DNA from: a bacterium BMS3Abin02
Lineage (GTDB): Bacteria > Actinomycetota > Acidimicrobiia > Spongiisociales > UBA4744
Direction of reading: 5' to 3'
Assembly: GCA_002897675.1 (NCBI GenBank)
Contig: BDSU01000040.1
Span: 5,201 to 69,200, forward strand
Length of the DNA stretch: 64,000 nucleotides
Each line of letters opens with the position of its first letter. Position 1 is the first letter of the stretch. The position numbers and the translations under genes were made by a program. Below the pieces are notes generated by a model, which made no database searches, was not told the DNA's origin, and saw only the letters and a program-made list of their open reading frames with translations. Below, in pieces: positions 25,914 through 27,814 of this stretch.

Positions 25914-26642
25914 CAGTTCTGTTACCTCCACTCTCGAAAGCCGAGAGCGGCGGTCAGGTCATTTCTGCCTGACTCTGCATGTCGCCATGCAGCTCGGACT
26001 ATATCTTCACCAATCGAGGTGTTCGGCGTATAGTCTCTGAGGGTTCTGGACTCCTATCACGTCCGACATCTTCCACTTTCGATACGCCCCATTCGCGTTC
26101 ATGGTGAACGCCAGGCGTACCAGTTGAACAAACCCCTCATACTCGAGGTGAACTTTCTCAGCCATCGCTTGCACGATGGTCGCGAAGCTCACGAAGGTTT
26201 GTTGCTTGTCGGACAGGAGTGGGTTGCGTTCGAAGAAGGGTATGACGTGATCGAGAAGATCTCTGCGTCTCCTCACCACGAACACCAGAGTCTTGTCTGA
26301 CATCCGGTGTCGATCATTGATGACGATGCGTCCGCACTTCAGTACGTCTCTGAAGTACTCGAGCACCGTCGAGCGTTCCGCATTCTGACTCACACGAAAC
26401 TCGTGAATCAGTTGGAAACCGAACGCTAGGTCGGATCGTCGTGTGATTCCGACCGAAAACGATCCTTCTCCATCGGCAAACCCGCTCAGATAGGCTTCCA
26501 GCCTTCCCTGCTGATTGTCCGCACCGGATGGTTTGTCACTGCTCATATCACGACCCTACCGAGAGGGTATGACACAAACGAGTACCACCGGATACTCGGA
26601 TATTCCAGCATATAGCCGAATTTTGAGACAGCAAGGTCATTC
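25914..26642 (-). mobile_element. Group I intron (729 nt) in 23S rRNA domain V, carrying an intact LAGLIDADG homing-endonuclease gene
   Basis: The 23S exon sequence GAGACAGU^UCGGUCCC is interrupted. The 5' exon ends in U and the intron ends in G. The group I core elements R (CCUCAGAGACUAUAC) and S (GAAGAUAUAGUCC) are present. A 179-aa ORF lies inside. Confidence 0.75.
26007..26546 (-). CDS. LAGLIDADG homing endonuclease (single-motif, I-CreI-like family), intron-encoded
   Basis: 179 aa. LAGLIDADG motif LEAYLSGFADGEGSFSV near the N-terminus. Size and downstream pattern (FxxQ..., PFFERNPLL, KxxxF) match homodimeric I-CreI-type enzymes. Confidence 0.85.
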   Translation of the reverse strand: MSSDKPSGADNQQGRLEAYLSGFADGEGSFSVGITRRSDLAFGFQLIHEFRVSQNAERSTVLEYFRDVLKCGRIVINDRHRMSDKTLVFVVRRRRDLLDHVIPFFERNPLLSDKQQTFVSFATIVQAMAEKVHLEYEGFVQLVRLAFTMNANGAYRKWKMSDVIGVQNPQRLYAEHLDW

Positions 26643-27267
26643 ACTGTCTCACGACGTTCTAAACCCAGCTCGCGTGCCGCTTTAACGGGCGAACAGCCCG
26701 ACCCTTGGGACCTGCTCCAGCCCCAGGATGCGACGAGCCGACATCGAGGTGCCAAACCGCGCCGTCGATATGGACTCTTGGGCGCGATAAGCCTGTTATC
26801 CCCGGAGTACCTTTTAGCCGATGAGCCATGGCGCTTCCACATGCCACCATGGGATCATTAAGCCCGACTTTCGTCCCTGCTCGACTTGTAGGTCTCACAG
26901 TCAAGCTCCCTTGTGCCTTTACACTCAACGCCTGATTGCCGACCAGGCTGAGGGAACCTTTGGGCGCCTCCGTTACTCTTTAGGAGGCCACCGCCCCAGT
27001 GAAACTGCCCACCAGGCACTGTCCCTGATCCGGATAACGGATCGAGGTTAGAAGCCCGCTATACGAAGGGTGGTATTTCAAGGGCGACTCCACGCCGGCT
27101 GACGCCGACGCTTCCAAGTCTCCCACCTATCCTACACATCGTATACCAGACTCCAATGCCAAGTTGCAGTAAAGGTTCCGGGGTCTTTCCGTCCTGTCGC
27201 GGGTAGTGAGCATCTTTACTCACAATGCAATTTCGCCGAGTCCCTGGTTGAGACAGTGCCCAAGTCG

Positions 27268-27793
27268 TTACGCCATTCGTGCAGGTCGGAACTTACCCGA
27301 CAAGGAATTTCGCTCTATTGTGCCCCCATGTCGCCATGAGGATAGGACCATATCTTCGACTCGACAGTCGATGCCGAGTTGGCTGGCGTATGGCCTCTGA
27401 GGATTCCAGGAATCGAGACCGCTCGCTGCGAACCTCTGCAAGTCCGCTCGCTTGACGGTTATCAGTGTGTGCTCTTCGAAGAACGGCTGTGACATCCAGG
27501 AGGTCCGCTCGGTTGCTTCACGAAGAAGCGCACGAGTTTCACTCGATGGGTTTGTCATGTCGGCTGTCCGCGATCTTTGCAGATCGGACACAGCCCTCGC
27601 CGTCGACAAAGCCGACGACCCACTGCTCAATTCCTGACCTTTCCTGCTGATTGTCCGCACCGATCAGATTTTCACTATCCATGTCTCCGCCCTCCGGAGA
27701 GGGTGTGACGTGAATGAGTACTGTCGGATACACGGGGTTTCCAGCATATAGCCAGCTGCAACCCGCGATGTCGCCATCGCGGAGGGCAGACAC
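27268..27793 (-). pseudogene. Decayed LAGLIDADG homing-endonuclease gene (frameshift plus internal deletion of about 150 nt)
   Basis: The N-terminal fragment (27539-27793) reads ...GADNQQERSGIEQWVVGFVDGEGCVRS then stops. The C-terminal homology (LLREATERTSWMSQPFFEEHTLITVKRADLQRF) continues in another frame (27268-27660). The middle third of the protein is missing. Confidence 0.55.
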
Positions 27794-27814
27794 TCTTGCA
27801 CGAAGAGTGCTTCT
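27315..27814 (-). mobile_element. Group I intron (500 nt) in 23S rRNA at the classical L1931 site (CCUAAGGU^AGCGAAAUUCC), with a degenerate LAGLIDADG gene
   Basis: The exon junction is exact. The 5' exon ends in U and the intron ends in G. Core elements R (CCUCAGAGGCCAUACG) and S (AAGAUAUGGUCCUA) are present. The 5' region shares about 60 nt with the first intron (...GAGAGGGTRTGAC...GAGTAC...TTCCAGCATATAGCC). Confidence 0.7.

What the first reader, a model, noticed from the sequence alone, without database searches (positions are those of the whole stretch)
25914..27814. The two 23S introns are paralogous: shared 5' segment, similar core, and related endonuclease N-termini
- The 5' regions share a block of about 60 nt (…GAGAGGGTRTGAC..AA.GAGTAC…GGAT..TTCCAGCATATAGCC…).
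- The sequence after the S element is identical in both (AAGAUAU.GUCC…CAUGGCGACAUG).
- The encoded proteins share the unusual pre-motif GADNQQ(G/E)R…(S/V)GF(A/V)DGEG.
- Two related introns at different rRNA sites within one gene suggest intragenomic spread by ectopic homing or reverse splicing. They may also be a lineage-specific intron family with diverged target specificity.
Basis: seen in the sequence. Interest (0 to 1): 0.6.

Follow-up and report, generated by a model that had tools for sequence, protein, structure and literature searches.

The report
Two related introns in 23S rRNA
Two self-splicing introns in one bacterial ribosomal RNA gene belong to the same intron family, but each is closer to introns at its own site in other bacteria than to its neighbour. 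They are old cousins rather than recent copies, which is the usual pattern for these mobile introns.

Summary
The 23S rRNA gene (minus strand; MAG "bacterium BMS3Abin02", Acidimicrobiia-like) carries two group I introns.
- Intron A is 500 nt, lies after E. coli U1931, and its homing-endonuclease gene is decayed.
- Intron B is 729 nt, lies after U2604, and has an intact 179-aa LAGLIDADG gene.

Their best shared segment scores 84 bits. Shuffled sequence gives 19±2 bits, and unrelated group I introns from the same kind of genomes give at most 33 bits.

They are not recent copies of each other. Among 166 introns recovered from 80 related 23S genes, A's closest relatives are L1931 introns in other Acidimicrobiia (core identity 0.80–0.85). 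B's closest relatives are L2604 introns (0.82–0.87). A and B are only 0.74 identical and differ by 12 compensatory base-pair changes.

Both belong to one ribozyme family found at L1911, L1917, L1923, L1931 and L2604. Its endonucleases cluster by insertion site.

The "GADNQQ(G/E)R" pre-motif is the P5'–J5/4–P4'–P6 ribozyme core read as protein. It is equally conserved in family members that have no ORF.

This is a known kind of element in new hosts. The L2604 site was already reported in CPR bacteria in 2024. Interest is modest.

The parts
25623..29932 (-). 23S rRNA gene (host gene); 3081 nt once both introns are removed
   Evidence: Rfam LSU_rRNA_bacteria, 2672 bits, full length; spliced length
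27315..27814 (-). Intron A: group I intron after E. coli U1931 (L1931), 500 nt, ribozyme intact, endonuclease gene decayed
   Evidence: Exon junctions. Rfam Intron_gpI 33.6 bits, E=6e-6, below the gathering score. Collinear with 7 L1931 introns of other MAGs. E. coli numbering checked.
27763..27810 (-). Intron A 5' periphery: P1-extension hairpin (27790-27810), guide CUGCCC (27784-27789), P2 hairpin with GCGA loop (27763-27782). B has no P2.
   Evidence: Read from sequence and the L1931 alignment. The 36-nt gap in B appears. The helix assignment is inferred.
27639..27757 (-). Intron A shared 5' core block: P3, J3/4, P4, P5, P5a/b, P5', J5/4, P4', P6 5' strand. The codons for GADNQQER lie at 27643-27662.
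   Evidence: nhmmer family profile, E=1.4e-30; structure and covariation
27539..27682 (-). Intron A endonuclease relic: 47-aa N-terminal fragment (MDSENLIGADNQQERSGIEQWVVGFVDGEGC...), ending at a premature stop
   Evidence: ORF list. No Pfam hit. 74-81% identical to L1931-type HEs against 53% to B's HE.
27407..27538 (-). Intron A out-of-frame remnant of the endonuclease gene (..PFFEE..L.T.KR.D...F..) flanked by two internal deletions (about 120 nt and about 88 nt)
   Evidence: Alignment with intact orthologues L055, L010, L013, L043, L039 and L056; frames
27315..27406 (-). Intron A shared 3' core block: P6', J6/7, P7, P3', P8, J8/7 (GAAGAUAU), P7', P9 hairpin (GCGA loop), terminal G
   Evidence: nhmmer, E=3.3e-16; covariation; coordinates
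25914..26642 (-). Intron B: group I intron after E. coli U2604 (L2604), 729 nt, with an intact endonuclease gene
   Evidence: Exon junctions. Rfam Intron_gpI 27.2 bits, E=5e-4, below the gathering score. 74 introns at the same site in other genomes.
26625..26632 (-). Intron B internal guide sequence GCUGUCUC, complementary to the 5' exon end GAGACAGU (8 bp P1, with U.G at the splice site)
   Evidence: Read from sequence. GCTGTCT recurs in most L2604 introns.
26503..26622 (-). Intron B shared 5' core block (P3 to the P6 5' strand). The codons for GADNQQGR lie at 26507-26526.
   Evidence: nhmmer, E=2e-30; structure
26007..26546 (-). Intron B homing endonuclease gene: 179 aa, single LAGLIDADG motif (LSGFADGEGSF). 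It starts in the P5 extension and ends in P8'/J8/7, so both ends overlap the ribozyme core.
   Evidence: ORF. Pfam LAGLIDADG_1 67 bits against a cutoff of 23.1. 746 homologues. PDB relatives include I-OnuI-type enzymes and I-CeuI.
25914..26046 (-). Intron B 3' core block (P6' to P9, 25975-26046) plus peripheral hairpins P9.1 (25953-25973) and P9.2 (25928-25950), which A lacks, then the GUAACAGAACUG tail
   Evidence: nhmmer, E=1.7e-25; coordinates. The 52-nt gap in A appears.

Best explanation
**What they are.** The two elements are anciently diverged members of one family of group I introns that colonises several sites in domains IV and V of bacterial 23S rRNA (L1911, L1917, L1923, L1931, L2604). 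Each belongs to a site-specific lineage. That lineage is maintained by its own single-motif LAGLIDADG homing endonuclease and inherited largely along host lines.

**How they work (inferred from the known biology of this class).**
- Both ribozymes fold into the P3-P9 core and excise themselves from the rRNA precursor. P1 pairs the site-specific guide with the 5' exon, and the terminal G defines the 3' splice site.
- Intron B can still home. Its 179-aa endonuclease, presumably a homodimer, would cut intron-less L2604 alleles, and repair would copy the intron in.
- Intron A has lost its endonuclease through two deletions and a frameshift. It persists as a fixed, immobile but structurally intact ribozyme, which is the late stage of the homing cycle.

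**Why the peptides look alike.** The endonuclease ORF sits in loop L6 and has extended through the ribozyme core at both ends.
- GADNQQ(G/E)R is the P5'-J5/4-P4'-P6 core read as protein.
- The C-terminal resemblance is the P6'-J6/7-P7 core. The two endonuclease lineages read it in different frames.
For: **Shown here**
- The A-B similarity is far above chance and above unrelated group I introns.
- Family profiles hit 8/8 L1911, 12/12 L1917, 10/10 L1923, 30/30 L1931 and 74/74 L2604 introns, and 0/15 L1951 introns.
- A's top seven relatives are all L1931 introns from other MAGs (250-350 bits, collinear).
- B's closest relatives are L2604 introns; 27 of its 28 best BLAST matches lie at L2604, the exception being L012_L1923.
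- Core identity is 0.74 for A-B. A reaches 0.85 and B 0.87 with their best same-site relatives.
- Endonucleases are 52-85% identical within a site and 30-40% between sites.
- Endonuclease clades by site have 85-100% bootstrap support. B's endonuclease lies in a 100%-supported clade of 8 Acidimicrobiia L2604 endonucleases.
- A's N-terminal relic is 74-81% identical to L1931-type endonucleases and 53% identical to B's.
- Same-site core identity tracks host 23S identity (0.70 rising to 0.96, Spearman 0.65).
- The 52 core pairs are 96.5% canonical, against 31-39% when the 3' partner is slid. 32 pairs show compensatory changes, 12 of them between A and B.
- The core string GGUGCGGACAAUCAGCAGGRAAG is mostly 95-100% conserved per column (lowest 75%) in 24 ORF-less introns.
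- The L1931 lineage reads ...CUG GAA UCC UCA GAG GCC... (LESSEA). The L2604 lineage reads ...AAC CCU CAG AGA CUA... (NPQRL).
- The same intron-bearing sequence appears in independent assemblies.

**From the literature**
- LSU introns and their endonuclease genes cluster by insertion site, and their ORFs run into the core (PMC1995217).
- Position 2604 carries LAGLIDADG_1 group I introns in CPR bacteria (PMC11270868).
Against: - The ribozyme-only tree (221 columns) is poorly resolved, with most deep nodes below 50% bootstrap. The order and number of site switches cannot be reconstructed.
- Different-site core identity rises modestly with host relatedness (0.66 to 0.73).
- Three other genomes have within-genome pairs closer to each other than to any sampled same-site relative. 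Some exchange between sites, or host-driven convergence, therefore does occur in the family.
- Both introns score below Rfam's gathering threshold.
- Splicing, endonuclease activity and the number of rRNA operons in this MAG were not tested.
- Sampling was seeded with the L2604 endonuclease, so other sites are seen only in genomes that also carry an L2604 intron.
Confidence: 0.85

Rival explanations
1. Recent intragenomic spread: one intron gave rise to the other within this genome or its recent ancestors, by ectopic homing or by reverse splicing into the second rRNA site.
For: - The two lie in the same gene and share exact runs of 15 and 20 nt.
- Within-genome L1931 x L2604 pairs are on average more alike than between-genome pairs (0.738 vs 0.688, p~1e-6).
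Against: - The exact runs are family-invariant core columns.
- The within-genome excess disappears once host relatedness is controlled: same-genome pairs give 0.717, against 0.72-0.73 for closely related genomes.
- A and B are far from reciprocal nearest neighbours (ranks 86/132 and 120/130).
- They differ by 12 compensatory pair changes and in peripheral architecture. A has P2 and B does not. B has P9.1 and P9.2 and A does not.
- The endonuclease relic in A is L1931-type.
Confidence: 0.04
2. No specific relationship: the similarity is only the universally conserved group I core.
For: Several shared strings (J8/7 GAAGAUAU, the P7 region, the P4 region) are elements conserved in many group I introns and align to the Rfam consensus.
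Against: - Thirty-one other group I introns from the same set of genomes (L1951, L2449, L2473, L2500, L2511, L2593) give at most 28-33 bits against A or B, compared with 84 bits for A-B.
- The family profiles miss all 15 L1951 introns.
- The shared region includes the whole P5a/b extension and the P9 hairpin with its GCGA loop. These are not universal.
Confidence: 0.01
3. Part of the resemblance between introns at different sites is maintained secondarily. This could be recombination or gene conversion between ribozyme cores, or module swapping within host lineages, rather than shared ancestry alone.
For: - Different-site core identity increases with host relatedness (0.66 to 0.73).
- In the core tree, Solirubrobacterales L1917, L1931 and L1923 introns group together, and L015_L1911 groups with L015_L1931.
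- Three within-genome pairs exceed their best same-site relatives.
- L042 carries an L1931-type endonuclease inside an L1911-type ribozyme.
Against: - For the window pair there is no tract of elevated identity outside family-invariant columns.
- Its identity (0.738) is typical, rank 32 of 81.
- The host effect could equally reflect base composition or shared selective environment.
- The bootstrap values are low.
Confidence: 0.1

Closest known systems
Multi-intron 23S rRNA genes of thermophilic cyanobacteria (Synechococcus sp. C9 and S. lividus C1: L1917, L1931, L2593; Haugen et al. 2007, PMC1995217)
   Same: - Several group I introns sit in one bacterial 23S gene.
- Each carries a single-motif LAGLIDADG endonuclease gene.
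- The ORFs extend from a peripheral loop into the ribozyme core.
- Introns and endonucleases cluster by insertion site, not by genome.
   Different: - The host here is an Acidimicrobiia-like MAG.
- The second site is L2604, not L2593.
- One endonuclease gene is decayed.
- No sequence comparison with the cyanobacterial introns was possible with these tools.
CPR-bacterial rRNA insertion sequences at 23S position 2604 encoding LAGLIDADG_1 (Tsurumaki et al. 2024, PMC11270868)
   Same: - Same insertion position, same Pfam family, and classified as group I introns.
- My related loci include Patescibacteria, Berkelbacteria and Peregrinibacteria members whose endonucleases are 45-49% identical to B's.
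   Different: - That study covered CPR bacteria and called the site unreported in other bacteria.
- Here the site is occupied in Acidimicrobiia, Thermoleophilia, Armatimonadota, Omnitrophota and Planctomycetota MAGs.
L1931 group I introns of Thermotoga, Simkania negevensis and green-algal organelles (listed in PMC1995217, Table 1)
   Same: - Same insertion site.
- Similar size when intact: relatives of A are 704-711 nt against 654-700 nt.
- Single-motif LAGLIDADG endonucleases of about 160-180 aa.
   Different: - A has lost its endonuclease.
Coxiella burnetii 23S introns Cbu.L1917 and Cbu.L1951 (Raghavan et al. 2007, cited in PMC11270868)
   Same: Two group I introns lie close together in one bacterial 23S gene, and only one encodes an endonuclease.
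   Different: - The sites differ.
- In my data L1951 introns belong to a different ribozyme family from A and B.
Spread of related group I introns to different rDNA sites by reverse splicing (Bhattacharya et al. 2005, PMC1299323)
   Same: - Related ribozymes occupy different rRNA sites.
- Each has a guide sequence matched to its own exon. B's GCUGUCUC pairs with GAGACAGU.
   Different: - That work concerns endonuclease-less nuclear introns of fungi.
- Here each site has its own endonuclease lineage, so DNA-level homing is the maintenance mechanism.
- The original site switch cannot be assigned to either route.
Homodimeric single-motif LAGLIDADG endonucleases of LSU introns (I-CeuI at L1923; I-CreI at L2593)
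   Same: - Pfam LAGLIDADG_1, about 170-180 aa, one motif, encoded in 23S introns.
- I-CeuI (2ex5) is detected by sequence at E=4e-9.
   Different: - Identity is low.
- The best PDB matches are halves of monomeric I-OnuI-type enzymes (E=1e-33 to 1e-20).
- The target site differs, and no activity data exist.

Membership tests
Group I intron (self-splicing ribozyme) | Conserved core helices P3-P9, including the P3/P7 pseudoknot | tested here: met
   - A consensus structure was built on 85 non-redundant family members.
- The 52 pairs are 96.5% canonical, against 31-39% when the partner is slid.
- Compensatory changes occur in 32 pairs.
- A and B keep all helices.
Group I intron (self-splicing ribozyme) | U at the last exon position pairing with G in the guide (P1), and G as the last intron nucleotide | tested here: met
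   - A: ...AAGGU|A...AAUAG|A.
- B: ...ACAGU|G...ACUG|U, with an 8-bp P1 (GAGACAGU/GCUGUCUC).
- A's P1 is short: GGU/GCC plus an extension hairpin.
Group I intron (self-splicing ribozyme) | Score at or above the Rfam RF00028 gathering threshold (50 bits) | tested here: inconclusive
   - A scores 33.6 bits (E=6e-6) and B scores 27.2 bits (E=5e-4), both below threshold.
- The large ORF insert in L6 and the P5 extension are penalised by the model.
- This threshold is an annotation criterion, not a biological definition.
Group I intron (self-splicing ribozyme) | Excision and exon ligation, guanosine-dependent | not testable with these tools
   Needs RNA-seq or RT-PCR across the junctions, or in vitro splicing.
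LAGLIDADG_1 homing endonuclease (Pfam PF00961), single-motif type | Profile match above the curated cutoff, with one LAGLIDADG helix carrying the acidic catalytic residue | tested here: met
   - B's ORF scores 67 bits against a cutoff of 23.1.
- Its motif is LSGFADGEGSF.
- D25, G26, E27 and G28 are invariant in 19 homologues.
LAGLIDADG_1 homing endonuclease (Pfam PF00961), single-motif type | The same, applied to intron A's ORF | tested here: not met
   - The 47-aa fragment gives no Pfam hit.
- Two deletions and a frameshift separate it from intact orthologues.
- It is a pseudogene, not a member.
LAGLIDADG_1 homing endonuclease (Pfam PF00961), single-motif type | Site-specific double-strand cleavage of the intron-less allele | not testable with these tools
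   Requires a biochemical assay.
L1931 intron lineage | Insertion after E. coli U1931, with nearest relatives at the same site | tested here: met
   - The site was mapped on E. coli rrl. Known sites map with the same offset.
- A's seven best relatives are all at L1931.
L2604 intron lineage (23S position 2604 of PMC11270868) | Insertion after E. coli U2604, encoding LAGLIDADG_1, with nearest relatives at the same site | tested here: met
   - Site mapping.
- All 80 genome loci found with the endonuclease have it at this site.
- The endonuclease clade has 100% bootstrap support.
   - Ranks are 86/132 and 120/130 by BLAST, and 31/134 and 87/134 by core identity.

The most novel reading that the evidence does not exclude
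**What may be new.** The window samples a large radiation of one group I ribozyme family in the 23S rRNA of uncultivated Actinomycetota and other phyla. As far as I could find, this radiation is uncatalogued.
- It occupies at least five sites, including L1911, which I found in no paper I read.
- Some relatives carry up to five introns per gene.

**Why it might matter.** Ribozyme and endonuclease modules appear to have partly independent histories.
- An L1931-type endonuclease sits inside an L1911-type ribozyme (L042).
- Within-genome cores at different sites are closer than same-site relatives in L015, L018 and L046.
- The same core RNA is translated in two frames by two endonuclease lineages.

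If this holds, the family would be a natural system for working out how an intron and its endonuclease acquire a new target site.
Probability: 0.4. Interest if true: 0.5.

Novelty: new member of a known kind. Interest (0 to 1): 0.3.

Why it matters
- **For annotation.** Both introns fall below Rfam's gathering score, so they are invisible to standard pipelines. They inflate the 23S gene to 4.3 kb. The 47-aa ORF called inside intron A is a pseudogene fragment.
- **For biology.** The case is a clean illustration of the homing cycle, with one active and one decayed element side by side. It also shows how strongly a ribozyme core can dictate the sequence of the protein that overlaps it.
- **Broader picture.** The L2604 site and its sister sites are heavily occupied outside the CPR, in soil and marine Actinomycetota. 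This modestly extends the 2024 CPR survey.
- It does not change how these elements are understood to work.

Tried and rejected
- **tblastn of B-type endonucleases against intron A.** It was uninformative because A's gene is decayed. I switched to nucleotide comparison.
- **First endonuclease NJ tree.** It was invalid: distances became NaN for pairs above about 85% divergence, and spurious wrong-frame ORFs were included. I repeated it with HMM-filtered domains and capped distances.
- **Ribozyme-core NJ tree.** It is too poorly supported to order the site switches. I relied on nearest-neighbour ranks and binned identities instead.
- **Raw within-genome versus between-genome comparison.** It suggested intragenomic similarity. 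Stratifying by host 23S identity removed the same-genome effect.
- **Search for further copies.** The family profiles find only the two introns in the 64-kb window. The rest of the genome could not be searched.
- **Literature search for "L2604".** It returned nothing relevant. The site turned up as "2604" in PMC11270868.
- **Subgroup assignment (IB4, IC1-like and so on).** Not attempted, for lack of a reference set.
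Full report
**Context**

The window carries one rRNA operon on the minus strand: 16S at 30129-31658, 23S at 25623-29932 and 5S at 25444-25560. There is no tRNA in the spacer. The 179-aa protein encoded in the region occurs, residue for residue, in several assemblies of one organism. These include GenBank GCA_002923235.1, "bacterium BMS3Abin02", from a marine metagenome project. Its closest relatives are Acidimicrobiia MAGs. The 23S gene spans 4310 nt against a 2925-position model. It is interrupted twice.

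**The observation**

On the minus strand, intron A runs 27814->27315 (500 nt) and intron B runs 26642->25914 (729 nt). In both, the last exon base is U and the last intron base is G.

I mapped the flanks onto an E. coli rrl copy. That copy is 2902 nt, and the well-known sites L1917, L1923, L1931, L1951 and L2593 all map with the same -1/-2 offset. On that basis A is L1931 and B is L2604. From my own knowledge, this agrees with m5U1939, A2602 and pseudouridines 2604/2605.

Rfam's group I model matches both introns only below threshold: 33.6 and 27.2 bits against a gathering score of 50.

- There is a 5' block of about 116 nt at 76% identity. It contains the exact runs GGCTATATGCTGGAA and CGGTGCGGACAATCAGCAGG.
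- There is a 3' block GAAGATAT(G/A)GTCC...CATGGCGACATG.
- The N-terminal peptides are similar (16/30 identical).

The best local alignment scores 84 bits. Dinucleotide shuffles give 19±2. Thirty-one other group I introns taken from related 23S genes give at most 33.

One correction is needed. Intron A does not encode an endonuclease. It has a 47-aa N-terminal fragment followed by out-of-frame remnants.

**Relatives**

The B endonuclease has 746 homologues in the protein collection. A scan of one genome per species found more than 500 encoding loci. The best 80 came from Acidimicrobiia, Thermoleophilia, Solirubrobacterales and Gaiellales, and also from Armatimonadota, Omnitrophota, Planctomycetota, Patescibacteria and others.

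I aligned the spliced 23S to these loci and refined the junctions with a spliced dynamic-programming step. In every locus where the junction could be mapped (78 of the 80), the endonuclease lies at the L2604 site. Many of these genes carry further introns.

| Site | Introns found |
|---|---|
| L1911 | 8 |
| L1917 | 12 |
| L1923 | 10 |
| L1931 | 30 |
| L1951 | 15 |
| L2500 | 9 |
| L2511 | 2 |
| L2593 | 3 |
| L2604 | 74 |

Some genes hold five introns. In all, 166 non-identical introns were extracted.

**Are A and B each other's closest relatives? No.**

- By BLAST, A's best matches are seven L1931 introns from other MAGs (L055, L013, L010, L043, L015, L039, L056). They score 250-350 bits and are collinear from end to end. 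L1911 introns come next. B ranks 86th of 132.
- B's best matches are almost all L2604 introns: 27 of its 28 best BLAST matches lie at L2604, the exception being the ORF-less L012_L1923. A ranks 120th of 130.
- On a 221-column profile alignment of the ribozyme core, A-B identity is 0.74. A reaches 0.85, and B 0.87, with their best same-site relatives.
- Endonuclease proteins are 52-85% identical within a site and 30-40% between sites.
- In a bootstrapped NJ tree the sites form clades: L1917 100%, L1923 85%, L1951 98%, and L1931 99% (with one informative exception, described below). B's protein sits in a 100% clade of eight Acidimicrobiia L2604 endonucleases.
- A's N-terminal relic is 74-81% identical to L1931-type endonucleases and 53% identical to B's.

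**One family on several sites**

Profiles built from the A/B shared blocks hit every intron at L1911, L1917, L1923, L1931 and L2604, plus one at about L2262. They hit none at L1951, L2449 or L2473, with only weak 3'-block hits at L2500, L2511 and L2593. A and B are therefore true homologues within a distinct ribozyme family. The relationship is between two site-specific lineages, not between two copies in this genome.

**Timing**

Same-site core identity tracks host 23S identity, from 0.70 for the most distant hosts to 0.88-0.96 for the closest (Spearman 0.65). This fits mostly vertical descent or transfer among relatives.

Different-site identity rises only from 0.66 to 0.73. Same-genome pairs (0.717) are not above pairs from closely related genomes (0.72-0.73). 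The raw within-genome excess seen is therefore a host-relatedness effect, not evidence of exchange inside a genome.

The A-B value equals that of same-site introns in hosts whose 23S differs by 20-25%. The split is old.

**Structure**

RNAalifold on 85 non-redundant members, with P7 added by hand, gives P3, P4, P5, an extended P5a/b, P6, P7, P8 and P9 with a GCGA loop.
- The 52 pairs are 96.5% canonical, against 31-39% when the 3' partner is slid by 1-3 columns.
- Thirty-two pairs show compensatory double changes.
- A and B differ by 12 compensatory changes: three in P3, four in P5a, two in P9, and one each in P6, P7 and P8. Both retain all helices, so A's ribozyme looks intact.

The peripheries differ. 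A has a P1-extension hairpin and a P2 hairpin. B lacks P2 but has P9.1/P9.2 and the GUAACAG tail typical of most family members. B's guide GCUGUCUC pairs with the exon end GAGACAGU over 8 bp. Introns at other sites carry guides matched to their own exons.

**The peptide motif**

The ORF starts in the P5 extension and runs through P5', J5/4, P4' and P6. It fills L6, then runs through P6', J6/7, P7, P3' and P8.

The codons GGU GCG GAC AAU CAG CAG GRA AGG are the P5'-J5/4-P4'-P6 core. That string is mostly 95-100% conserved per column (lowest 75%) in 24 ORF-less family members, just as in 106 ORF-bearing ones. The "unusual pre-motif" is therefore imposed by the ribozyme.

At the other end, intact L1931 endonucleases read the P6'-P7 core as ...LESSEAIRQP. 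L2604 endonucleases read the same RNA one frame over, as ...QNPQRLYAEH. The NPQR(P/L)YA resemblance between a frame of A and B's C-terminus is RNA identity, not protein homology. ORFs running into the core were already noted for cyanobacterial LSU introns (PMC1995217).

**Decay of A's endonuclease**

Compared with six intact orthologues of 704-711 nt, A has two internal deletions (about 120 and about 88 nt) and a one-base frameshift. An independent deletion is seen in L015. Pfam finds nothing in the fragment. This is the expected late stage of the homing cycle. That model is discussed in PMC1995217, and the assignment here is inference.

**Comparison with what is known**

Multiple LAGLIDADG-encoding group I introns in one bacterial 23S gene, and clustering by insertion site, were described in 2007 (PMC1995217). 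Position 2604 was reported in 2024 as a LAGLIDADG_1 group I intron site in CPR bacteria, and was described there as unreported in other bacteria (PMC11270868). I found no paper on such introns in Actinomycetota.

B's endonuclease is an ordinary LAGLIDADG_1 protein. It scores 67 bits, and its PDB relatives include I-OnuI-type halves and I-CeuI.

**Verdict**

This is a new member of a known kind, of modest interest.

**Limits**

- Nothing about splicing or cleavage was tested.
- The deep ribozyme tree is unresolved.
- Sampling was seeded from the L2604 endonuclease.
- Published L1931 introns could not be compared directly.

Noticed in passing
L042:1877-2572 and L042:2593-2927: The intron at L1911 has an L1911-type ribozyme core (0.85 identity to L1911 introns) but an L1931-type endonuclease (69% identity against 34% to L1911 endonucleases; 95% bootstrap). 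The L1931 intron 20 nt downstream is ORF-less. This looks like an endonuclease-gene swap between neighbouring introns.
   Followed up: partly
L015:1179-1915 / 1936-2501; L018:2193-2971 / 3915-4632; L046:2018-2339 / 3915-4664: These three within-genome pairs at different sites have ribozyme cores closer to each other (0.88, 0.84, 0.80) than to the best same-site relative sampled for at least one member. They are candidates for the recent site switching that the window pair does not show.
   Followed up: partly
L031, L053 and other loci: Uncultivated Actinomycetota carry up to five group I introns in one 23S gene (L031: L1911, L1931, L1951, L2500, L2604; L053: L1911, L1923, L1931, L2593, L2604). 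L1911 and L2511 appeared in none of the papers I read.
   Followed up: partly
L008:2174-2966, L025:2407-3189, L040:2451-3232, L035:2428-3207 and others: A second type of L1931 intron (3' tail ...GUAACAGAAUC|AGCG) appears to end in C or A rather than G, and no boundary shift satisfies both the U(-1) and terminal-G rules. The title of Raghavan et al. 2007 (reference list of PMC11270868) reports a Coxiella 23S intron lacking the canonical terminal G.
   Followed up: no
window:27324-27341, 27763-27782 and 25975-25992: The string AUGGCGACAU (a hairpin with a GCGA tetraloop) occurs in intron A's P2 and in the P9 of both introns. This may be a repeated tetraloop module for tertiary contacts.
   Followed up: no
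window:49531-49648 (-): An FMN riboswitch scores 106 bits, above the gathering score.
   Followed up: no
window:29933-30128 (-): The 16S-23S spacer of about 196 nt has no tRNA gene, and ARAGORN finds no tRNA anywhere in the 64-kb window.
   Followed up: no
window:27539-27682 (-) = L001:1865-2008: Public gene callers annotate the 47-aa relic of intron A's endonuclease as a protein-coding gene with no Pfam hit. It is a pseudogene fragment inside an rRNA intron.
   Followed up: yes
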